31,378 nt of DNA from a virus (IMGVR_UViG_2648501787_000011:1-31378); one strand, 5' to 3'; shown: positions 3,069 to 30,385, numbered from the stretch's first letter. The notes: generated by a model from the sequence alone, not told the origin. Translations and numbers: made by a program.

Positions 3069-3601
3069 ACGGGCGGTGATGTCTTCTCATTGTCGCCGTC
3101 CTTATGAATATGATTGCTGAAAGATTTACCGTTGATGGTGACATCTTCAGTAAATTCACAGGGACCGACGAATTTCATTTGTTTACCGATAATATTCAGC
3201 AATTCGTCGGCGGTGAGATTTACCGTTTTCCCTGAAACGTCTAATTGTTCCCCTGTTATTTCAATAACGCCGTTTTCCTTCAGGGTAATGTGTGATTTTC
3301 CGTCCCGGTGATACAGCCGGACGTCGCCGGGGGACAGGTCTTTAGGGCGACATCGCTTGTCCTCCACTGCGATGGCAACCAGCCCGTCACGCCGTCCGCC
3401 AACGGCCAGCACTATGGCTTCTGAACCTTCCGGCGGAACGGAAGTAAAACCGTAATTCTGGAAGCGTTCCACGTCGTCATCGGTGGCATCTGCCAGCGTC
3501 TGGATTTGCAGGTTCTGCCGCTCCAGACTGTCAGACACCATGCGGACAATGGCACGGTCAACCATCAGCCGCAGACGGCGGGTAATTGCGCTTAATCCCA
3601 T
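3065..3601 (-). CDS. Baseplate central spike, Mu gp45 / P2 gpV-like
   Basis: 178 aa; contains QNYGFTSVPPEGSEAIVLAVGG segment typical of gpV-type spike N-terminal domains; follows hub gene. Confidence 0.7.
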   Translation of the reverse strand: MGLSAITRRLRLMVDRAIVRMVSDSLERQNLQIQTLADATDDDVERFQNYGFTSVPPEGSEAIVLAVGGRRDGLVAIAVEDKRCRPKDLSPGDVRLYHRDGKSHITLKENGVIEITGEQLDVSGKTVNLTADELLNIIGKQMKFVGPCEFTEDVTINGKSFSNHIHKDGDNEKTSPPV

Positions 3602-4665
3602 GTGGCCACCGCTTTTGCTGATTTCTTCGTTTTCACTTTCATTTCCGGCATGTCCAGTGATTCAGGCGGAACCAGCGCCAGAACCGTTATCCGCCCCTGT
3701 GCACCATCCGTCCAGGTCACCCCGGATATCAACCAGGTGGTTTTCAGGTTCTGAATACTGTCGTCGATATCAACAAGGCGGTTGGTCTGCCACAGCGGGC
3801 CGCTGTCGCCCCGTTCGCGCCAGCCTGCCACCGTGATTTCCGTCGTGCGGGCCTCTCCCAGCATCCGGGCTTTGAACCATTCCCCGCGAATGCTGGCTCC
3901 ACCCACGGTCAGACTGTCTTCATTGACCAGAATGCGCGGGCGGTAACGGTTAATTTCCGGGTCTTCGGTGATGTACTGGCGACCGCCCACCATCGAGGCA
4001 GGCTGGCTGTCCCACAGTTTGCCACCGGCACTGGTGGTGCCCTTGATGATGTACTGACTGTTACGCTCCCGCCAGCTGAAGCGCCCACGGGCGGCGAGGA
4101 TATTTTTTCCCAGCACCAGTGAGACACCTGCGCGAACGGAAGAGGCGCGGGTGATAATCAGGTTACCCCCTCCGTCAGACGTCAGCAGAACGCCGCGCTG
4201 TTTTGCCAGCCGGTCGAGCAGTTCAAAGCCCGTTTCACCCTGTTCCAGAACGACAGACGCAAACGCCTCCCCGGTCGGGGTTTCCGTGATGACGGTTATC
4301 CCGAACGGGCGGCAGACATCAGCCGCCACCTGTTCAAGCCGCACGCCTTTCCATTTCCCGGACGAATGCACCACAGAGCAGTCCACCAGGTCACCGGTTT
4401 TGTCGCGCCCCATGACGCGAATCTCCACGTTTTCTGCGTCATAGCTGGGAATAAAATCATCGATATACCCCGTCAGCACGGTATCCGCGCCCAGCCTGAC
4501 CGTGCAGGGTTGCCCCTCACGAATCACGCGCGGTGCCGCCGCTGACCAGCGGGTTGTCACACTGAGATCAAACTCACCGGCAATCGCCTTCAGGGAACGA
4601 CTGACGGACATTTCCGTCCAGCCTTCCCACAATTTGCCGTCAACGGTAAGAATCACGGAGCCCAT
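3592..4665 (-). CDS. Baseplate hub protein, Mu gp44 (P)-like
   Basis: 357 aa; position after gp43-like gene; 1-nt start/stop overlap with upstream ORF. Confidence 0.65.
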   Translation of the reverse strand: MGSVILTVDGKLWEGWTEMSVSRSLKAIAGEFDLSVTTRWSAAAPRVIREGQPCTVRLGADTVLTGYIDDFIPSYDAENVEIRVMGRDKTGDLVDCSVVHSSGKWKGVRLEQVAADVCRPFGITVITETPTGEAFASVVLEQGETGFELLDRLAKQRGVLLTSDGGGNLIITRASSVRAGVSLVLGKNILAARGRFSWRERNSQYIIKGTTSAGGKLWDSQPASMVGGRQYITEDPEINRYRPRILVNEDSLTVGGASIRGEWFKARMLGEARTTEITVAGWRERGDSGPLWQTNRLVDIDDSIQNLKTTWLISGVTWTDGAQGRITVLALVPPESLDMPEMKVKTKKSAKAVATWD

Positions 4666-10305: not shown

Positions 10306-10897
10306 CGTCACCCCGTACATGGATCACGTCGTTAATCTCAGTATGTTCACCGCTACGCAGCGTTGTCCCGAGGCGCAGGAAGTCCGGGAGCGCAGCGAGA
10401 TCAAGCTCTTCATCCAGCTGAAATTCCTGCTCCCACGTCACCGCCCACATGGTGACGCCCAGCCCGTCGAGGCTGGCGGAGTAAATGTTGTCTGCCCGCA
10501 CGTCAGCAGCCATGCGTTCAGCCCCCATGCCCGCTGTGGCATCTGACGACAGCAGACGTTTGATCACCTTCCCGGCCAGCACTTCACAGCGCACGTCGCG
10601 GGAGTACCCCCACGAATCCGTCGCCATGATGTAAGCCACCCAGGTGACCAGACCGGACAGCCCGCCGCGCGGGTTAATATCCCGGACGCGCAGGGCAGCT
10701 ACCCGGATACAGCCGGTGCGACCGGACAGATAGCGTTTCACTTCATCGGGGCTGTTGAACTGGCCGATGTGACGCTCCACCACGTCGGCCCGGTCAGGGG
10801 TGTTTCCCTGAAGCGCTATTTTCAGCCAGGCCACAATGCGCTCTGCGGCCGCAACTGTGCTCCCCGGTGTGCGCAGTTCAGGGCGTTGTTCTGTCAT
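10286..10897 (-). CDS. Hypothetical virion protein, Mu gp38-like
   Basis: 203 aa; position in head-tail joining block. Confidence 0.55.
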   Translation of the reverse strand: MTEQRPELRTPGSTVAAAERIVAWLKIALQGNTPDRADVVERHIGQFNSPDEVKRYLSGRTGCIRVAALRVRDINPRGGLSGLVTWVAYIMATDSWGYSRDVRCEVLAGKVIKRLLSSDATAGMGAERMAADVRADNIYSASLDGLGVTMWAVTWEQEFQLDEELDLAALPDFLRLGTTLRSGEHTEINDVIHVRGDDGTETD

Positions 10898-11439
10898 GGC
10901 AGAACCTCCTTCCAGAAATGACTGATAACCTGTTGCAGCTCCTGCTGGTTGGCAGAAGACAGCCCCAGAAATTCACGTTGTGGAATATTCATCATGCGGT
11001 TATGTGCGCCGACGGTCTGCCAGACCGGATATTTCAGCGCCCGCCCGAAACACTGCGAGATAAGCCGCTTGTGGGCGCTGACCGGCACACTGCCGGAAAA
11101 GCCGTCATTCATGATGCGGGCATAATCCAGCGGTGAACCGATACGCACCACGCGGTTTTCCACAATGTACTGGATACTCTCCAGTAGATGACCTTCACCG
11201 CGCAGCAGACTCTGGTTGCCGTGGCGGGTCTTTTTGTACCCGTCAGACCAGTCCGGCCAGCGTTCGCCACCCGGACTGGTTTTCTCATCGATGATGCGGC
11301 GGCGGGTCTGTGATTCCACCACCGCACCGATGCTTTCCAGCAGCTCTGCCTGCAATGAACCATCTGCCAGCTTTTCAACGGCACGGCGGATATCCTCCAG
11401 CCGCTGGTCACCGCTGACCTGTACAGAAATCCCCATCAC
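10894..11439 (-). CDS. Virion morphogenesis protein, Mu gp37 (K)-like
   Basis: 181 aa; 4-nt overlaps with neighbours; position as in Mu. Confidence 0.55.
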   Translation of the reverse strand: MMGISVQVSGDQRLEDIRRAVEKLADGSLQAELLESIGAVVESQTRRRIIDEKTSPGGERWPDWSDGYKKTRHGNQSLLRGEGHLLESIQYIVENRVVRIGSPLDYARIMNDGFSGSVPVSAHKRLISQCFGRALKYPVWQTVGAHNRMMNIPQREFLGLSSANQQELQQVISHFWKEVLP

Positions 11440-13165: not shown

Positions 13166-14127
13166 CAGTTATTCTCCTGTTTTGGTTTAGCGGCGAGGAA
13201 CTCTTCCCCGGTAATACCCATGCTGCGGCACATCGCCAGTTCGGCGTCGGTCAGTGTCTGCGCGGGTTTATCCTTGCCCTGGCTGGGCTTGTCGTTGTTC
13301 ACCAGCGGCTGTGCACCTCTGGTGTACTCCGCAAACTGTTTGCGGCCTTCTTCCGTACGGCAGGTAGCAAGGAACATGTCACGGTTTGCCGGGGCCACTT
13401 TTCCGGCTTCGATGGCCGCATCCACAAGCGCTTCTGCTTCCTTAGCTTCCAGTTGCTGAAGGCGTTGTTCTGCGGTTTCGGCACGGTTCAGTGCCAGATT
13501 GTGGGTTTCCACCGGCACAAACTTCGTCAGATCAGGTGTCTGTGCGCGGTTCAGCGCCACCTGTTCGTTCTCCTGAAGTTGTTTAATGGCGGCCACGGTA
13601 TCGTCCACCGTGGCGGATTCAGCCAGCCCAAGCAGGCCGGTGATTTGCACAGGTACTGTCATCGGGTTTTTCTCCGTATTCAGTGCAGGAAAATCCAGGT
13701 TAGGTTTGTTGGTCAGCCCGACGCTGGACAGGCGTGTCACCGCACCGTCCGCGTCAAAGAAAAACGCCGGGCTGTAATAGCGGTAGCGGCGCTCGCTCAG
13801 CATCCACCGGGCGGACTCACTCCAGACAACACGGCCTTCAATGGTGCTGCTGTCCGTCACCCGCAGTTCCTCCACCCAGCCATACGCCGGAGCATCTTCA
13901 CCCCGCGGGCCTTTAATTTCGGTGGCGTGTTCAATGTCCACCGGAATTTTGATGTCGGACGAACGGGCAACCACCTCATGTGGATTGCGGTTAATCCACG
14001 TCCGGCCATCGCGCCCGGTGAACTCACCCGCAGGGACGAGTTCAAGCCATTCCGGCAGTTGAGCGGGTGTCAGCTCAGTGATGGGTTCTGGCAGGGAAAA
14101 ACACAGCGCCAGCAGTTCCGGTTGCAT
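13165..14127 (-). CDS. Head maturation protease with nested C-terminal scaffold, Mu gp32/Z (I)-like
   Basis: 320 aa; C-terminal half is coiled-coil rich (LQQLEAKEAEALVDAAIEAG); internal Met near EKNPMTVPVQI could start a nested scaffold as in Mu. Confidence 0.75.
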   Translation of the reverse strand: MQPELLALCFSLPEPITELTPAQLPEWLELVPAGEFTGRDGRTWINRNPHEVVARSSDIKIPVDIEHATEIKGPRGEDAPAYGWVEELRVTDSSTIEGRVVWSESARWMLSERRYRYYSPAFFFDADGAVTRLSSVGLTNKPNLDFPALNTEKNPMTVPVQITGLLGLAESATVDDTVAAIKQLQENEQVALNRAQTPDLTKFVPVETHNLALNRAETAEQRLQQLEAKEAEALVDAAIEAGKVAPANRDMFLATCRTEEGRKQFAEYTRGAQPLVNNDKPSQGKDKPAQTLTDAELAMCRSMGITGEEFLAAKPKQENN

Positions 14128-14176
14128 GTCAGTCTCCGTCGTTTGGGGTTACTGACGGTCAGTATGCGGAAGGCAG

Positions 14177-14200
14177 AAAAAAAGCCGGATTTACCGGCTT
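14177..14200 (-). terminator. Rho-independent terminator (minus strand) between F and I
   Basis: Minus strand reads AAGCCGG-TAAAT-CCGGCTT followed by seven T. Identical 27-mer recurs at 21738-21761. Confidence 0.6.
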
Positions 14201-14341
14201 CACTGAAAACGGGAAGAATACCCCCTTCAAAACCCCTTCAAAAACGCCACAGCGCCTTCAAAAACGTCAGAATGCACATTCACGCCATCAGAATAAAAAA
14301 CGCGTTTCTGATGCGTTTCAGGGGGATTTATGGCGGGAGGG

Positions 14342-20475: not shown

Positions 20476-20873
20476 GAATCCCCCTTATGAAAACTGCGCT
20501 GATGTTTATAAAGTGCCGCGCAAAAGATACCGCCCAGCCAGAACGCCAGCTGATAAGGCTCCTTCAGATAAAGAAGGCCGAATGTCAGCATGAAAAGACC
20601 AACGGCCCAGACCACCCATGACCACACGACAATTCGAAGGGAGGCGGCCCGGAAACGCCTTTTGGGTTGCAGGCGATAAGGTACGTTGCCCAGCGGGAAA
20701 CTGTGAATCAGGCAGAGTGTCGCGCCGTATGCCAGCACCATGACCGCAAACGCCCGCCATCCGGCAAAACAGCTTGCCAGAAAAAGTACTGCCGACAGTC
20801 CCAGAAACGACCACTGGCACAACATAAAGCGGGAGTAAATAACGCGAACAAAAAGACTATTCATTCTGTGCAT
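20463..20873 (-). CDS. Polytopic membrane protein (holin-like candidate)
   Basis: About 136 aa from ATG 20873 (AAGGA 8 nt upstream) with 3-4 predicted TM helices. Track ORF extends to 21044 but that part overlaps the preceding ORF and is Arg/Trp-rich. Confidence 0.5.
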   Translation of the reverse strand: MHRMNSLFVRVIYSRFMLCQWSFLGLSAVLFLASCFAGWRAFAVMVLAYGATLCLIHSFPLGNVPYRLQPKRRFRAASLRIVVWSWVVWAVGLFMLTFGLLYLKEPYQLAFWLGGIFCAALYKHQRSFHKGDSWIR

Positions 20874-21084
20874 TGAGTTTTTCCTTGTACTTCTGGCACT
20901 GCCAGAAAATGTCCCGTGTATCCACGGAGTTCCAGCCACGCATGTAGTAGCTGGCGTGTGTACCGTCATGACCGGTATAGTCCACCGGCTCTGGCGGCGG
21001 ACCTCCGGCCATACGATGTAAAACCTCCTGACGCAGGCGGTCACGCCGCCCGGCTCTCAGCGAGGCATCCCAGCCTTTACCCAT
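20857..21084 (-). CDS. Hypothetical protein immediately downstream of endolysin
   Basis: 75 aa; start ~2 nt after the endolysin stop; no TM segment or lipobox. Confidence 0.4.
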   Translation of the reverse strand: MGKGWDASLRAGRRDRLRQEVLHRMAGGPPPEPVDYTGHDGTHASYYMRGWNSVDTRDIFWQCQKYKEKLNAQNE

Positions 21085-21085
21085 A

Positions 21086-21682
21086 TCACCCCCGCGTGGC
21101 GGACATGATGCCTAAAGGGGTATCGATGATTTCCAGACAGGCGTCGGTCAGCTTTTCCATGCGGTTAAACCAGCCGTTCAGGTATTTACCCTGGGCGGGT
21201 TTTGACTTGATGATGTCGGCATAAAAGCGGGAACGACGGACAATGCAGCGGGCCAGCAACCAGTCCGGGGTGGACAGACTCACGGCCTTACGGGTACGCG
21301 GGCCGATGATGCCGTCAGCATCCACATCAGCGGCTTCCTGCAAAATCCTGATAGCTTTTTTAACGCCATGCTGAACGGCTGCATCGAACACAAACATCGC
21401 CACGCCATCAGGCCACTGGTCACATCCGGCAGGCAGCCAGTAATCGCGCCAGTAAATCTGCGCGACCTGTTCGCGGGTTAAATCCCTGATGCGGGTATCC
21501 GGTTTACCGTCGCCGCTGACATCGGTTTTGCCGTCAATCACACCGTCGCGGCGGTCAGAAATGCCGTATTTGGTTTCGCCGCCACGGTCAGTGGGGTCAT
21601 TGACATAGACGCCTTCGATATCGGGACGCAGAATAAAATTCAGCGCATGTTCAAAGGCCGGGGAGAATTTCAGATTTTCCAT
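21086..21682 (-). CDS. Endolysin, GH108-type N-terminal domain plus peptidoglycan-binding domain
   Basis: 198 aa; N-terminal motif IEGVYVNDPTDRGGETKYGISD matches the GH108 signature EGGY-N...D-GG-T-YGI; no N-terminal hydrophobic SAR segment; AGGTG RBS 7 nt upstream. Confidence 0.75.
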   Translation of the reverse strand: MENLKFSPAFEHALNFILRPDIEGVYVNDPTDRGGETKYGISDRRDGVIDGKTDVSGDGKPDTRIRDLTREQVAQIYWRDYWLPAGCDQWPDGVAMFVFDAAVQHGVKKAIRILQEAADVDADGIIGPRTRKAVSLSTPDWLLARCIVRRSRFYADIIKSKPAQGKYLNGWFNRMEKLTDACLEIIDTPLGIMSATRG

Positions 21683-21737
21683 AAAAGCACCTGTGAAGCA
21701 GATTTAAACGTGGTCTGTTTCATGGTGCCGGAGGCAT

Positions 21738-21761
21738 AAAAAAAGCCGGATTTACCGGCTT
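21738..21761 (-). terminator. Rho-independent terminator (minus strand) between secreted-protein gene and lys
   Basis: Same AAGCCGG-TAAAT-CCGGCTT hairpin plus T7 tract as at 14177-14200 (27-nt identity). Confidence 0.6.
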
Positions 21762-21781
21762 CATTGAATTAAAAAAGATGA

Positions 21782-22261
21782 CTACTCATCACCTTTGATG
21801 GAGCAATCTATTACCATATCGTTACCCATCTTGAGAAATTTGGTTTGCATGAGAAAACCCTGTATCACATCAGTTAACCCATACCCTTCAACTTTTGTAG
21901 CTGAAACTACCATGTCAATAATTCGTTTCTGCTGTTTCTCTGTTAGTTCGCCAATTGCTGACTCCGCAACTCGCGAGCATGCCACAAAAGAAGACAACAC
22001 ACCTGAAGGATTGTTTTCATAATCCTTCACTGTCGTCGTTGAGCTGACGACTTTATTGTTGATCGTAAATACCCCGAATTTACTGTGGGCAGTTTCTGTT
22101 CCACCGTTCTTAATTGAATCGCCCCCTTTAAGAGGCTTCCAGCTATTTAGTGCAATGAGGTCTTTTTCTGTAAGACGTTTTTTGATGACATCTTCAGCTG
22201 GCAGTTTTGCCGCATTCGCGCAAAATACGCCCAGTAAAAGTATAAGAGGAAAGTATTTCAT
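21782..22261 (-). CDS. AT-rich secreted/periplasmic protein of unknown function (moron candidate)
   Basis: 159 aa with clear signal peptide MKYFPLILLLGVFCANA; lower GC than flanking phage genes; ATG overlaps the mor stop (ATGA). Confidence 0.65.
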   Translation of the reverse strand: MKYFPLILLLGVFCANAAKLPAEDVIKKRLTEKDLIALNSWKPLKGGDSIKNGGTETAHSKFGVFTINNKVVSSTTTVKDYENNPSGVLSSFVACSRVAESAIGELTEKQQKRIIDMVVSATKVEGYGLTDVIQGFLMQTKFLKMGNDMVIDCSIKGDE

Positions 22262-22659
22262 GACTCATCCTTAAATAGTTGCATTTGATATTTTTCACGC
22301 TCCAGTCGGCGCATTCTTTTGATGGCCTGATATACCGTTTTGTATGTCACTTTGTAACGCTGCACCAGCTCCGCTACGTTTTTCCCATCAAAATCATGCC
22401 AGATGCGCATGTCTCTGATAAGATTTTCCAGTATTTTCCCTTTCGGAACATATACCTGAATCCCACCGATATGATTGCAAATCGCCACTACCAGCTCAAG
22501 GGAGTGGGCAGGGTTAACTCCAAGCCTTATCAGCTCCTGTCGCAACAGAGCATTCAGCTCAGCCAGTAAAGATGGGAATCCCGATTTTTCCTGAACATCA
22601 TCAAAATATTCAAGGATACTGTCGTCCTGATAATCACCAAATAAATCTAGCTCTTTCAT
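22258..22659 (-). CDS. mor: Mor/C-family transcriptional activator (Mor by position)
   Basis: 133 aa; C-terminal HTH GKNVAELVQRYKVTYKTVYQAIKRMRR and N-terminal LFGDYQDD resemble Mu Mor; ATGA overlap with upstream gemA-like gene. Confidence 0.75.
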   Translation of the reverse strand: MKELDLFGDYQDDSILEYFDDVQEKSGFPSLLAELNALLRQELIRLGVNPAHSLELVVAICNHIGGIQVYVPKGKILENLIRDMRIWHDFDGKNVAELVQRYKVTYKTVYQAIKRMRRLEREKYQMQLFKDES

Positions 22660-27118: not shown

Positions 27119-29107
27119 TTAAATGGCTTTTTTACGTCTGTTCTGTTCCAGAATATCCAGCGAATGATTCAGATATTCATCACGATCAGTTTCATATTCA
27201 TCATCGGGTTCCTGGTATTTCACCTGCACCGTGTTACCGGAAGGCCGGAAAATACCAACAACCCTTGATTCTGGCGCTGCTGCTTCGGCTATCTGCGGCA
27301 GCAGTTCAGCAACTTCCAGCGCGTCCATTTGCTTCTGCGCCTTAATGGCTGCTTTAGTTGCAGATTTCAGTTGTTTCTGGCGGCGGCGATATTCGCGGCC
27401 TGCCGCAGCATCATTAAATGCAACAGGTGCCAGACATTCCGCTTCACAGATAAACCGACCGTCCAGGGTGTAACAATAAACCGTGCTGTGTAACTGCTGT
27501 GGATCAAACCTGACCACAACTTTTTTCACGCCGGCATTCATTAACGCCATGTTGTAATAAACGTTTTTCGCGCCTTTAAGGGAGCCGCCAACTTTAAGCG
27601 TAAACTCGCCTTTGCGTGAAACGTTCACCGCCTCGGCAGGCAGTAACAGCATCCGTTTTTGTTCTTCGGTTGGCTTACGCACAATCGTTCTGGCGTATTC
27701 ACGCTCGAAAACATCATCAAACGAGAGTTTGCCCCCGCACATTTCTGTTTCACGGCCTGTTCTGGCATTGAACATCGCAACACCTTCAGCAAGGGTTTTC
27801 AGAAACAGCTCTGCATCAACAGCACGGTCGCCATAGTTATCAGGTTTTGCCTGCGGATTTGGCCCCGTATATGCGCCAGCCAGTGCCGGATGCTTATCAA
27901 TGTATTCTTCAAGCCCACCAACACCGAAAGCGCGTTCAACAGGTTTTGCCTGGCCCCAGCCTTTACCGGCAACAACGCTTGTCCAGTGCATTTTTGCGCC
28001 CATCAGTAAAAACAGCCCCTTTGGATCGTCCTCTTTCACTTTAAAGCGGTAACGATTGGGCGCGCCCCCCGTCAGCCATTTATTCGCTGCACCACGGGTG
28101 TTATCAATGGTGATGTGAAAATCTTCCGGGATGCCGTAGCGTGTCACCACATCCATGAATGAGAGGCGAATTGAATCGATGTTCTCGCTTACATCGCAGC
28201 GCCAGCCCAGAATTTTTCGGGTTTTCACATCCTGCCAGAACCATGTTTTCGGGCGGATCACATCACCGTTAAACCAGCGTACAAAGACGTTATGCAGATA
28301 ACCGTCGCCGTTGATCCACTGCATGGCGTCCAGGTGTTCCACAGTTCGCTGCTGTGCCGGTATCAGATGCATCAGTGCATGTTCACCTTCACGGCAGGCA
28401 ACAACCATTGCCTCGTCCAGTTGTTGAATCCGGCGAAAGGCCGTGGCACGGGAGGGAATACTCCAGCCATGCTCGCGGGCTGCCAGTTCCAGACGCTCAT
28501 AACATTTGCGGAAGGCGGGTTTTTCCGGTCGCAGATAATCTGCAATCAGAAACTGCCAGGCATCCTCGTCAAATTCACTTTTGTGAACGTTGCGACGAGA
28601 TGCACCACGTCCATCAACAAGTGCAGCCGCCCAGTCAGGCTTCGCAAACTTCTGTACCTGGTAATACTTGTCCCGCAAAGTGGATGCGCTGACCTGGTAA
28701 TGGCCTGCAACGGTCGCAAATGCCGTTTTCGTTGAAATCCCCTGGTTCAGCATTTCGTCTGCAGCCTGAACCGCAGGCAACCATTTTTCAGCAAGTCTGC
28801 GCTGGGAATCGCTGGCGTTATCCCATTTGCTCCACAGTGCCTCACGATCATAATCATGGGCTTCCAGCGTGGGGCGGGCGATTTCAAAACGGCCCTGGCT
28901 TGTTTCAATTCTCCCTTGTTGCAACAGAATTTCAGCACGTAATGTGACAGGAAATGATTTGATATTGAATTCAAATGATACACCTTTAGTTCCTGCAACC
29001 TGCCTGAACTCCCAGCCTTCTCTTTGTGCCTTACGTGTAATGTTAGTGGCTTGCTTTGGTAAACCTGCCAAACCGAGCAACTCTTTTGCTGTATACCATT
29101 CTTTCAT
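27119..29107 (-). CDS. A: DDE transposase A (MuA), D108-type N-terminal domain
   Basis: 662 aa; from about residue 70 onward recognised as Mu A; first ~65 aa differ from Mu and resemble the c repressor N-terminus in this window. Confidence 0.95.
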
Positions 29108-29521: not shown

Positions 29522-30046
29522 ATGATGTCTTTTGAAATCAAAGAATGGTTTAATGCGAAAGAGCTGGAAGGGATGCCTGGTGTACCAAAGTTGGCGACTA
29601 ACATTACCAGGAAAGCTGTGGCGGAAGATTGGGTAAAACGTCAGCGTCACGGTGGGAAAGGTGTCGCTTATGAGTATCACATCAACAGTCTGCCAGAAGA
29701 AACACGCAGGGCCATTAAAGGAGCCTCACTTTCTGATAAACCAGTGCATACATCAATCGCCCATACAGTTGATGAGAGGCTAATTTATGCAATGAGCTTC
29801 TTAACACCAGATGAGCAGGCCGCAGCTGTGGAGATCATTCGTGTAGCAGGGATTAAAGGTCTTATGCCTACAATTGTCAGTAAAGATAAGGCATTAGAGG
29901 CATTAGGGATTACTGTGGAGCAACAGAAAACCCTGCAAACTCTTCAGGCATTACCACCGGAAAAAGTGAGAGAGATTTTGTCTCAGTATGAAGGCAAAGA
30001 ACATAATTTCCCTGTAAGAGAAAACGATGTAAAGAAGGCTGTATAA
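29522..30046 (+). CDS. c: Repressor c (Mu/D108 immunity repressor)
   Basis: 174 aa on opposite strand to early operon, between operator and attL; N-terminus shares a DNA-binding domain with A ([26 protein letters not shown]); C-terminus LPPEKVREILSQYEG...KKAV resembles Mu c. Confidence 0.85.
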   Translation: MMSFEIKEWFNAKELEGMPGVPKLATNITRKAVAEDWVKRQRHGGKGVAYEYHINSLPEETRRAIKGASLSDKPVHTSIAHTVDERLIYAMSFLTPDEQAAAVEIIRVAGIKGLMPTIVSKDKALEALGITVEQQKTLQTLQALPPEKVREILSQYEGKEHNFPVRENDVKKAV

Positions 30047-30179
30047 CAACCAGGTAATGGCTAAGACATAAACTTCACTCCAGGTTATTACATATGTAAG
30101 ATACCCAAACAGTGATGATTGTTTTTGATACACAGCACTTGCTGAAAGCCTGGTTGTTACCGTTTTTGAAGCATTTTTG

Positions 30180-30385
30180 AAGCTGTACTTGAAATGATGC
30201 GTGAAGTAATTGCTTTTCGTGTCTTTAATGAATCAAAAGCTGTTTCCAACAATCTTTCGCGTTTCAAGATGTAACGGCTAAAATCTATCCTACAGGCTTG
30301 CAAGCCCCGCTAAATCTAATCCCGCCAAATCCCGAATAATCCAATGTCCTCCCGGTTTTTTTCGTACTTCACGTGAATCAATACA
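30180..30385 (-). repeat. Mu-type left end (attL) with MuA-binding sites
   Basis: Reverse complement starts TGTATTGATTCACGTGAAGTACGAAAA (L1-like); second site around 30258-30275 contains TGAAACGCGAAAG (L2-like); further CGAAAA repeat inward. Confidence 0.8.

What the first reader, a model, noticed from the sequence alone, without database searches (positions are those of the whole stretch)
14128..14341. Identical terminator cassette duplicated in front of the lys and I late operons; no gene between F and I
The 27-mer AAAAAAAGCCGGATTTACCGGCTTCA occurs at 14177-14203 and 21738-21764. On the minus strand each is a GC hairpin plus T7 tract, and each sits about 55 nt upstream of a late operon start (I at 14127, lys at 21682). 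The sequences just downstream share a loose motif (ATGCCTCCGGCA.. and CTGCCTTCCGCA..), and the I leader carries the palindrome ACTGACCGTCAGT. This looks like a duplicated terminator/late-promoter unit. Separately, the 215-bp F-I gap has no ORF where Mu carries gene G.
Basis: partly seen in the sequence, partly recalled or inferred. Interest (0 to 1): 0.5.

Follow-up and report, generated by a model that had tools for sequence, protein, structure and literature searches.

The report
Mu middle-promoter/terminator unit reused for late operons
The repeated "terminator" is this Mu-like prophage's version of phage Mu's Mor-activated middle promoter (which overlaps a terminator hairpin), placed before the lysis and head operons because the phage has Mor but no second activator C.

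Summary
An exact 26-mer (a 43-nt repeat at 91%) lies upstream of lys and of I, and the 214-bp F-I gap has no credible gene.

On the coding (minus) strand the element matches phage Mu's middle promoter Pm at 25-26 of 28 positions from -51 to -24. That stretch covers the 16-bp Mor-binding site plus the rest of a hairpin and a T7 run. A -10-like hexamer follows at Mu's spacing.

The window encodes one Mor ortholog (64% identity) and no C protein. The best reading is a two-tier cascade: the hairpin and U7 run end the upstream transcript, and Mor restarts transcription just downstream.

In relatives, the hairpin and T run are invariant after the early operon (79 of 79 loci). In front of I they are degraded in 10 of 17 lineages, while the Mor site and the hexamer persist. 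A third, hairpin-less Mor box lies inside a baseplate gene.

The rest of the F-I gap aligns with Mu's central strong gyrase site. The Mu G homolog lies downstream of T.

An unexpected extra: promoter DNA upstream of the predicted start co-varies with the ribosome-binding site of the first gene, suggesting a translational lock on read-through RNA.

None of this is tested experimentally.

The parts
21750..21765 (-). Mor-binding site of the lys unit: AATGAAGCCGGTAAAT, predicted positions -51 to -36
   Evidence: 13 of 16 identical to the Mu Pm Mor site AGTAAAGCCGGTTAAT, aligned in register. The Mu site position comes from PMC4287176 and my placement of +1.
21738..21762 (-). Hairpin GAAGCCGG/TAAAT/CCGGCTTT plus T run: predicted intrinsic terminator of the early operon, overlapping the Mor site
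   Evidence: The homologous Mu hairpin is annotated as a TransTermHP terminator. Hairpin and at least 7 T are intact in 79 of 79 untruncated loci chosen by Mor protein.
21722..21727 (-). -10-like hexamer CACCAT, 22 nt after the Mor site; predicted transcription start near 21714
   Evidence: Same register as Mu Pm TATCCT. A hexamer with A at position 2 and T at position 6 sits at this spacing in 65 unique post-Mor units.
21685..21729 (-). Long hairpin: GGCACC (21729-21724, promoter spacer/-10) pairs with GGTGCT (21691-21686, ribosome-binding site of lys), with an inner stem 21721-21714 / 21702-21695
   Evidence: Folding z-score -3.55. Native 5' and 3' halves fold at -20.8 kcal/mol against -11.8 for chimeras across 18 leader families; 0 of 5000 permutations did as well.
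14189..14204 (-). Mor-binding site of the I unit: AGTGAAGCCGGTAAAT, predicted positions -51 to -36
   Evidence: 14 of 16 identical to the Mu Pm Mor site, and 26 of 28 over -51 to -24. Found (within 4 mismatches of the 16-mer) in front of I in all 17 relative lineages examined.
14177..14201 (-). Hairpin plus T7: predicted terminator of the lys-to-F transcript
   Evidence: At this position the hairpin and U run are intact in only 6 of 17 lineages, so it is optional here.
14161..14166 (-). -10-like hexamer CATACT; predicted transcription start near 14153
   Evidence: In register with Mu Pm TATCCT. It also aligns with the Mu PI hexamer CAAACT. CAYACT, CATGCT or GACACT sits 22-23 nt after the Mor site in all relatives.
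14128..14163 (-). I leader. CCGTC (14158-14154) pairs with GACGG (14140-14136), which overlaps the ribosome-binding site GGAG.
   Evidence: The hairpin is kept by different stem sequences in relatives and in Mu PI (CCGTC, CTGCATG, CCATACG, ACTGCTCA). Native halves fold at -13.9 kcal/mol against -10.6 for chimeras; 0 of 5000 permutations did as well.
14224..14264 (-). Three phased direct repeats TTTT(T)GAAGG, start spacing 20 and 11 nt: homolog of the right arm of the Mu strong gyrase site
   Evidence: Aligns with the Mu repeats TTTTTTAAAACG / TTTTTAAACC / TATTTAACGG just downstream of the annotated gyrase cut site. The same three repeats lie in the G-I gap of a Mu-type prophage of E. coli SE11. 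In L001 the homologous repeats lie 47.5% of the prophage length from the left end.
14265..14341 (-). Remainder of the F-I gap. It aligns with the Mu region around the gyrase cut site and holds a weak hairpin (CGCATCAGAA...TTCTGATGGCG) followed by a T run.
   Evidence: The alignment here is poor and the function is not established.
22258..22659 (-). mor: the only Mor/C-family activator gene in the window
   Evidence: PF08765, E = 2e-30. 64% identical to Mu Mor and 31% to Mu C. tblastn finds no second copy.
21782..22261 (-). 159-aa cargo ORF between mor and the terminator/promoter unit, probably the last gene of the early operon
   Evidence: No Pfam hit; matches phrog_38744, function unknown. 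In relatives the box lies 8, about 58, about 350 or about 500-546 nt after mor.
3189..3233 (-). Candidate third Mor-dependent promoter inside the baseplate-V gene: AGGGAAAACGGTAAAT (3233-3218), 23 nt, TATTAT (3194-3189); no hairpin
   Evidence: One search found it with 3 mismatches; 0.33 matches are expected per window. The same site occurs in the same gene in the 66%-diverged prophage L229 and in roughly five further sequence types. The TAAAT/TTAAT variant matches that genome's other boxes in 6 of 6 contigs checked.
10894..11439 (-). Homolog of Mu G (virion morphogenesis family), located downstream of T instead of between F and I
   Evidence: PF05069, E = 4.8e-15. RefSeq annotates 'phage virion morphogenesis protein' at the same place in L001 and L229.
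30161..30182 (+). Two copies of TTTTTGAAG about 205-220 nt inside the prophage left end (30385), inverted relative to the central repeats
   Evidence: (I10). Homologous to Mu left-end nt 203-225. Function unknown.

Best explanation
Each copy is a compact 'stop and restart' unit homologous to phage Mu's middle promoter Pm.

What the sequence shows:
- The 5' arm and loop of the hairpin form a 16-bp Mor-binding site.
- The whole hairpin plus the T7 run has the form of an intrinsic terminator.
- A -10-like hexamer lies 22 nt after the Mor site, exactly as in Mu Pm.
- The prophage encodes a Mor ortholog but no C protein.

What I infer:
1. Early transcription runs through A, B, gemA, mor and a cargo ORF and stops at the hairpin and U7 run at 21762-21738.
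2. Mor then binds the same DNA at -51 to -36. It recruits sigma-70 RNA polymerase, as shown for Mu Pm, to the -10 hexamer.
3. Transcription of the lysis and head operon starts near 21714.
4. The second copy ends that transcript after F and restarts it near 14153, driving protease/scaffold I and major head protein T.
5. A third Mor box without a hairpin, inside the baseplate-V gene, probably drives the baseplate and tail-fibre genes.

On this reading the phage runs a two-tier cascade (early, then Mor-dependent), where Mu runs three tiers (early, Mor, C). The rest of the F-I gap is the counterpart of Mu's central strong gyrase site.
For: Match to Mu Pm:
- The element matches Mu Pm at 26 of 28 (I) and 25 of 28 (lys) positions from -51 to -24, with hexamers in register.
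- Mu Pm is annotated at that place as the Mor-activated promoter, together with a predicted terminator.
- The Mor site at -51 to -36, centred at -43.5, is taken from PMC4390567 and PMC4287176.
- The published permanganate pattern fits only one Mu start, AF083977 9224.

The activator and gene order:
- There is a single Mor ortholog and no C gene.
- Gene order is GemA-Mor-(cargo)-box-lys-E18 homolog, as around Mu Pm.

Comparative evidence:
- 79 of 80 loci chosen by Mor protein carry the box downstream of mor; the 80th is truncated.
- In front of I, the Mor site and hexamer are kept in all 17 lineages even where the 3' arm and T run are gone.
- Box variants track Mor helix-turn-helix residues in 66 unique proteins. 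The TAAAT loop occurs only with K (33 of 33). R occurs only with TTAAT (26). The left base A occurs only with F at the first variable residue of the 'VT..T' helix-turn-helix motif (12 of 12).
- A third box lies at a conserved place in a baseplate gene.
- The element is present only in carriers of such prophages.
Against: - There are no transcript, footprint or genetic data for this prophage. Both transcription starts are predicted by analogy with Mu Pm.
- The hexamers are weak: CACCAT matches the consensus at 3 of 6 positions.
- The box-versus-protein covariation is not corrected for shared ancestry.
- The pattern-based collection of loci was biased towards intact boxes. Only the protein-chosen set and the I-anchored set are free of this bias.
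- In the close relative L001 the com/mom promoter region shows no recognisable Mor box. Either one late promoter works differently or another factor exists.
- In Mu the bases just downstream of the activator site matter for activation (PMC2582627). Conservation of CCGGC and the T run could therefore partly reflect promoter function rather than termination.
Confidence: 0.8

Rival explanations
1. The copies are only intrinsic terminators. Late transcription starts elsewhere and is not activated at these sites.
For: Both copies have a canonical hairpin plus U7. They sit at operon boundaries. The Mu equivalent is called a terminator by TransTermHP.
Against: - In front of I, 10 of 17 lineages have a damaged or lost hairpin or U run, yet all keep the 5' half, the loop and a -10 hexamer at fixed spacing.
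- The conserved half is the experimentally defined Mor site of Mu Pm.
- The loop and flank, which are irrelevant to termination, are invariant or co-vary with Mor residues.
- A hairpin-less third copy exists.
Confidence: 0.05
2. The copies are only Mor-dependent promoters. The hairpin potential and T run are promoter features, such as bases next to the activator site or a bendable spacer, and do not terminate transcription.
For: Published work on Mu says the bases immediately downstream of the Mor/C site are critical for activation (PMC2582627). The I-type promoters of many relatives lack the hairpin.
Against: - The same relatives show that a Mor-box promoter does not need CCGGC plus T7.
- At the end of the early operon the full hairpin and at least 7 T are kept in 79 of 79 loci, although Mor proteins have diverged to about 60% identity.
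- One I-type lineage keeps the stem through a double change, GGCGG/CCGCC.
- A 5-GC-pair stem followed by U7 is a strong terminator form.
Confidence: 0.12
3. The two copies are C-type late promoters like Mu Plys and PI, each preceded by an unrelated terminator, and a C-like activator lies elsewhere.
For: The positions correspond to Mu Plys and PI, which are also preceded by predicted terminators. The I -10 hexamer and leader align with Mu PI.
Against: - There is no C ortholog in the window or in the annotated complete relatives L001 and L229.
- The activator-site region matches Mu Pm, not the C-site regions of Mu Plys or PI.
- Mu-type prophages that do have G and a C-type PI (SE11) lack the box in front of I.
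Confidence: 0.02
4. The identity of the copies reflects recent duplication or gene conversion of a neutral or mobile repeat.
For: The copies share 26 of 26 identical bases within one genome.
Against: - The same box occurs at the same two places in lineages whose flanks and proteins have diverged to 52-67% (I protein; Mor 57-74%).
- It is absent from E. coli genomes without the prophage.
- The flanks beyond 43 nt are unrelated.
Confidence: 0.01

Closest known systems
Phage Mu middle promoter Pm with its activator Mor (AF083977 9163-9233)
   Same: - Near-identical DNA from -51 to -24.
- The same 22-nt distance to a -10 hexamer, and no -35 element.
- An A/T-rich stretch just upstream.
- An overlapping terminator-like hairpin at the end of the early operon.
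- An activator gene 64% identical, in the same gene order after gemA.
   Different: - Here the unit drives the lysis/head operon directly, rather than a small middle operon ending in C.
- It occurs again in front of I and, without the hairpin, inside a baseplate gene.
- A cargo ORF lies between mor and the unit.
- The loop reads TAAAT instead of TTAAT, and position -48 is G instead of A.
Phage Mu C-dependent late promoters Plys and PI, each preceded by a predicted terminator
   Same: - The same genomic positions (before lys and before I).
- The same logic of terminator followed by an activator-dependent promoter.
- The I -10 hexamer and the leader hairpin are homologous to those of Mu PI.
   Different: - The activator site is Mor-type, not C-type, and no C gene is present.
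- In Mu the terminator and the C site are adjacent but separate. Here they share the same bases.
Phage Mu central strong gyrase site (SGS) in the G-I intergenic region
   Same: - Central position, directly upstream of the I promoter.
- Three phased T-tract repeats collinear with those of the Mu right arm.
- Identical repeats lie in the G-I gap of a Mu-type E. coli prophage (SE11).
   Different: - The repeats read TTTTTGAAGG rather than TTTTTAAAC.
- The stretch aligned with the Mu cleavage site is not similar.
- No G gene lies on the left side.
- Gyrase binding is untested.
Fold-back inhibition in IS10/IS50, recalled from memory and not checked in the literature here: transcripts entering from outside fold so that the transposase ribosome-binding site is hidden
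   Same: The 5' arm of a conserved hairpin lies upstream of the element's own transcription start, and the 3' arm covers the ribosome-binding site. Only read-through RNA can form the hairpin.
   Different: The context is a phage activator-dependent promoter placed behind a terminator. The mechanism is not demonstrated here.

Membership tests
Mor-dependent Pm-type promoter (Mor/C family activator, sigma-70) | 16-bp imperfect dyad (5-bp repeats, G/C-rich 6-bp spacer) centred at -43.5 | tested here: met
   The sites are AGTGAAGCCGGTAAAT (I) and AATGAAGCCGGTAAAT (lys), against Mu AGTAAAGCCGGTTAAT: 14 of 16 and 13 of 16 identical. The definition comes from PMC4390567 and PMC4287176.
Mor-dependent Pm-type promoter (Mor/C family activator, sigma-70) | Recognisable -10 hexamer at Pm spacing and no -35 hexamer | tested here: met
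   CATACT and CACCAT lie 22 nt after the site, in register with Mu TATCCT. The sigma-70 scan, which needs both hexamers, finds no promoter there.
Mor-dependent Pm-type promoter (Mor/C family activator, sigma-70) | Cognate Mor protein encoded by the early operon | tested here: met
   The gene at 22258-22659 matches PF08765, is 64% identical to Mu Mor and follows gemA.
Mor-dependent Pm-type promoter (Mor/C family activator, sigma-70) | Transcription start and promoter activity depend on Mor | not testable with these tools
   This needs 5'-end mapping, reporter fusions or footprinting.
Intrinsic (Rho-independent) terminator | G+C-rich stem-loop immediately followed by a U run | tested here: met
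   The stem has 8 pairs (5 G-C), the loop 5 nt, and a U7 run follows; folding energy is about -12.6 kcal/mol.
Intrinsic (Rho-independent) terminator | Stem kept by selection (conservation or compensatory change) at the site | tested here: inconclusive
   After mor the stem is invariant in 79 of 79 loci, so there is no variation from which to see compensation. In front of I it is intact in 6 of 17 lineages, shows one compensatory variant, and is otherwise degraded.
Intrinsic (Rho-independent) terminator | RNA 3' ends at the U run | not testable with these tools
   This needs Term-seq or in vitro termination assays.
C-dependent late promoter of Mu (Plys/PI type) | C activator gene present | tested here: not met
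   The only tblastn hit of Mu C in the window is the mor gene itself, at 31% identity. The annotated relatives also have a single Mor-family gene.
C-dependent late promoter of Mu (Plys/PI type) | C-type binding site at -52 to -34 | tested here: not met
   The region matches Pm, not Mu Plys or PI.
Mu strong gyrase site | Central location in the phage genome, upstream of I | tested here: met
   The repeats lie 47.5% of the prophage length from the left end in the complete relative L001, which spans 969-34656. In the window they lie about 16.1 kb from the left end at 30385.
Mu strong gyrase site | Right arm with an extended set of phased bending signals, homologous to Mu | tested here: met
   Three T-tract repeats with 20- and 11-nt spacing are collinear with those of Mu. 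They are identical to those of a Mu-type SE11 prophage. The role of the right arm is taken from PMC10052514.
Mu strong gyrase site | Strong quinolone-induced gyrase cleavage and stimulation of replication | not testable with these tools
   The stretch aligned with the Mu cut site is not conserved. An experiment is needed.
Host intergenic repeat (REP/ERIC-like) | Many copies scattered in the host chromosome | tested here: not met
   The element is found in 46 of 5426 genomes, with a minimum and median of 2 and a maximum of 6 places per genome.

The most novel reading that the evidence does not exclude
Mor/C-dependent promoters of the Mu family, including Mu Pm and PI, carry a built-in translational lock. 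The DNA between the activator site and the transcription start (spacer, -10, discriminator) is complementary to the ribosome-binding site and start codon of the first gene. RNA that reads through the upstream terminator therefore folds and cannot be translated. RNA started at the promoter lacks the 5' arm and is open. This would shield the endolysin and head genes from early-operon read-through. A second, weaker novelty is that the central gyrase-site repeats share a 10-11-mer with a site near the left end, and the shared sequence differs between this prophage and L229. That hints at a sequence-specific link between centre and left end.
Probability: 0.4. Interest if true: 0.6.

Novelty: new variant of a known kind. 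Interest (0 to 1): 0.5.

Why it matters
It explains the layout of a common family of Mu-like prophages. At least 119 viral contigs carry the element, as do about 1% of complete E. coli genomes. These phages appear to run their whole late programme from the Mor-type promoter that Mu uses only for its middle operon.

That gives a natural comparison for how the Mor/C paralogs and their promoter sets split. It also offers matched natural variants in which the terminator half and the promoter half of one overlapping element are separated. The box variants that track Mor residues are also direct candidates for specificity determinants.

The conserved pairing between promoter DNA and the ribosome-binding site is a testable idea for how phages keep lysis genes silent despite terminator read-through.

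Tried and rejected
- Megablast of 9.5 kb against the phage collection gave only a partial Klebsiella phage hit, which was no help.
- The papers on Mu-like prophage gyrase sites (PMC438558, PMC1347280) are not held. A search for the Mu early terminator name 't9.2' found nothing. That Mu's early transcript ends at this hairpin therefore rests on my memory and on the TransTermHP annotation.
- RNAalifold on a MAFFT alignment of the lys leaders predicted no pairs, because the alignment is not structural. I replaced it with a native-versus-chimera folding test.
- The 14-base scan for the third box gave mostly chance hits: 92 of 124 had no Mu context. Only hits inside baseplate-V or upstream of I were used.
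- Other 3-mismatch matches to the Mor site in the window (824, 19031, 25193) were set aside. They are on the wrong strand or have no -10 hexamer at the right spacing.
- The readings as a host repeat, a C-type promoter and a hidden gene in the gap were each tested and rejected.

Full report
**Setting**

The window is a Mu-like prophage of E. coli, and its genes are on the minus strand.
- The left end, TGTATTGATTCACGTGAAGTACGAAAA, is at 30385.
- Pfam confirms GemA, Mor, a GH108 endolysin, portal, F, protease I and major head T. A member of the Mu G family (PF05069) lies at 10894-11439, downstream of T.
- Close relatives (95-99% identity) occur in about 50 of 5426 complete E. coli genomes.
- One relative, L001, gives the whole 33,688-bp prophage and its RefSeq annotation.

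**The observation**

- The quoted string has 26 letters. It occurs exactly twice, at 14177-14202 and 21738-21763, with none expected by chance.
- The repeat extends to 43 nt at 91% identity.
- On the coding strand each copy reads GAAGCCGG TAAAT CCGGCTTT TTTT. Both are scored as terminator-like, and the hairpin folds at about -12.6 kcal/mol.
- The 214-bp F-I gap has no credible ORF.
- The element is confined to carriers of the prophage, with a minimum and median of two places per genome (maximum six). It is not a host repeat.

**What it is**

The GenBank record of phage Mu annotates the sequence AAAGCCGGTTAATCCGGCTTTTTTT directly after mor. It carries two labels there: 'middle promoter, activated by Mor' and a TransTermHP terminator. 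This is the window element with one change in the loop and one in the flank.

Published work places the Mor site at -51 to -36 of Pm. It is a 16-bp dyad with a G/C-rich spacer, centred at -43.5 (PMC4390567 and PMC4287176). The published permanganate-sensitive positions (-12, -4, -1, +1, +3, +4) fit the Mu sequence at only one place. That fixes:
- +1 at AF083977 9224;
- the hexamer TATCCT at -13 to -8;
- the Mor site as AGTAAAGCCGGTTAAT.

Aligned to this, the window copies match at 26 of 28 (I) and 25 of 28 (lys) positions from -51 to -24. Their hexamers CATACT and CACCAT lie in exactly the Pm register. By analogy the transcription starts are near 14153 and 21714. These positions are inferred, not measured.

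**The activator**

The window has one Mor/C-family gene. It is 64% identical to Mu Mor and 31% to Mu C. tblastn finds no second copy, and the annotated complete relatives also have only one.

The gene order is GemA, Mor, a 159-aa cargo ORF, the box, lys, then a 70%-identical homolog of Mu E18, which is the first gene behind Mu Pm. The lys unit is therefore the positional counterpart of Pm. Mu's middle operon (E18-E19-E20-C) and its C-dependent promoters have no counterpart here. I infer a two-tier cascade in which Mor switches on the late operons directly.

**Comparative evidence**

- *Spread.* An exact-pattern scan of viral contigs found at least 119 stretches with the element. They lie either between GemA/Mor and lys (or the Mu C operon), or between F and I.
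- *After mor.* In a set chosen by Mor protein rather than by DNA, 79 of 80 loci have the box downstream of mor; the 80th is truncated. Hairpin and at least seven T are intact in all 79. The flanks are unrelated, and Mor identity falls to about 60%.
- *In front of I.* I anchored on the I protein. All 17 lineages keep the 16-mer and a CAYACT, CATGCT or GACACT hexamer 22-23 nt downstream. The 3' arm and T run are intact in only 6. The stem is kept but the U run is weak in 1 lineage, which carries the compensatory pair GGCGG/CCGCC. The stem has one mismatch in 3 and is lost in 7.
- *Reading.* The constant function in front of I is the Mor-box promoter. The full hairpin and U run are held tightly only where the early operon ends. 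This is what a working terminator there would predict. A promoter role for those bases cannot be excluded (PMC2582627).
- *Protein-DNA covariation.* Among 66 unique Mor sequences, the loop TAAAT occurs only with K in 'AIKRMR' (33 of 33). R occurs only with TTAAT (26). The left-flank base A occurs only with F at the first variable residue of the 'VT..T' helix-turn-helix motif (12 of 12). This fits protein-DNA co-adaptation but is not corrected for shared ancestry.

**A third copy**

A 3-mismatch search for the Mor 16-mer found AGGGAAAACGGTAAAT at 3233-3218, inside the baseplate-V gene. It is followed after 23 nt by TATTAT.
- The same site occurs in the same gene in the 66%-diverged prophage L229 and in roughly five further sequence types.
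- Each has an A/T-rich hexamer at 23-24 nt.
- The TAAAT/TTAAT variant matches that genome's other boxes in 6 of 6 contigs checked.

This looks like the counterpart of Mu's PP, without a terminator. Confidence is moderate, because coding constraints also act on this sequence.

**The rest of the gap**

The F-I gap aligns along its length with Mu's G-I intergenic region. Three phased repeats TTTT(T)GAAGG (14264-14224, spacing 20 and 11 nt) correspond to Mu's TTTTTTAAAACG / TTTTTAAACC / TATTTAACGG. Those lie just downstream of the annotated gyrase cut site.

A Mu-type prophage in E. coli SE11 has G, a C-type PI and a Mu-like cut-site region. It carries the very same three TTTTTGAAGG repeats. In L001 the repeats sit at 47.5% of the prophage length. 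The right arm of the Mu strong gyrase site, with its repeated bending motifs, is the part required for function (PMC10052514).

I conclude that the gap holds the homolog of that site. Gyrase action is untested, and the stretch aligned with the cut site itself is not conserved.

**An unexpected feature**

In the lys-type units, the segment between the T run and the predicted start is complementary to the ribosome-binding site and start codon of the first gene, with an inner hairpin between them. The pairing is kept by different sequences in different lineages:
- GGCACC / GGTGCT here;
- GCCTGYCAC / GTGCAGGC;
- CCGGAA / TTCCGG;
- TCGGCA / TGCCGA.

Native 5' and 3' halves fold at -20.8 kcal/mol on average, against -11.8 for chimeras between families. 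None of 5000 permutations did as well. The I-type units and Mu PI behave alike: -13.9 against -10.6, and 0 of 5000. In Mu Pm itself, CCTGTGATGA, just upstream of the mapped start, pairs with TCATCATGGG at the E18 start codon.

Because the 5' arm lies upstream of the start, only read-through RNA could form this structure. I propose that it blocks translation of RNA that escapes the terminator. This is an inference from covariation and predicted starts. The palindrome is not conserved in its exact form: most close relatives read ACCGTCGGT.

**Verdict**

The finding is real and its interpretation was essentially right. The element is a new deployment of a well-studied unit, Mu Pm with Mor, rather than a new kind of element. 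It is used two or three times as the late-promoter set of a C-less Mu-like phage lineage.

All functional statements rest on homology, spacing and comparative patterns. No transcript or binding data exist for this prophage.

Noticed in passing
window 21782-22261 (-); relatives L133-L212: A variable cargo slot lies between mor and the terminator/promoter unit. In relatives the box lies 8, about 58, about 350 or about 500-546 nt after the mor stop. Here the slot holds a 159-aa ORF with no Pfam hit (phrog_38744, function unknown).
   Followed up: partly
window 14224-14264 (-) and 30161-30182 (+); L229 about 20900-20950 and 36470-36500; L213 203-225; L348 about 3700-3722: The central repeats share a motif with a site about 200 nt inside the left end, in inverted orientation. 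In the window the shared motif is CTTCAAAAACG (11-mer). In L229 it is GCGTTTAACG (10-mer). In SE11 it is CTTCAAAAA. Mu itself shows only a near match. TTTTTGAAG occurs only at these places in the 37-kb locus L001, against 0.37 expected. The function is unknown.
   Followed up: partly
window 21685-21737 and 14128-14166 (-); Mu L002 715-752: Conserved, co-varying hairpins join the promoter spacer/-10/discriminator region to the ribosome-binding site of the first gene. The 5' arm lies upstream of the predicted or mapped start, which suggests a lock on read-through transcripts.
   Followed up: yes
L001 1915-2060 (-): In the close relative, the com/mom upstream region has clustered GATC sites like Mu Pmom but no recognisable Mor box. 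It is unclear how mom would be activated without C. The window ends before this region.
   Followed up: partly
window 20857-21084 (-): A 75-aa ORF directly after lys is 70% identical to Mu E18, the first gene behind Mu Pm. This supports positional equivalence of the lys unit and Pm.
   Followed up: partly
window 29028-29107 and 29537-29616: An 80-nt inverted repeat (73% complementary) joins the 5' end of the transposase gene and the 5' end of the divergent repressor gene. It probably reflects the homologous N-terminal DNA-binding domains of Mu repressor and transposase. That explanation is from memory and was not tested.
   Followed up: no
L229 (E. coli ECONIH4, NZ_CP026399.1 562797-604153): A complete, 66%-diverged relative is inserted in a tail gene of a lambdoid prophage. 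It carries an IS66 element in its own tail-fibre region. Its I promoter keeps the Mor site but has lost the hairpin and T run.
   Followed up: partly
window 14211-14225 (-): A small hairpin, GGGGGTATTCTTCCC followed by GTTTTC, lies just upstream of the I Mor box. It aligns with the 3' part of the terminator predicted before Mu PI, so it may be a second, weak terminator.
   Followed up: no
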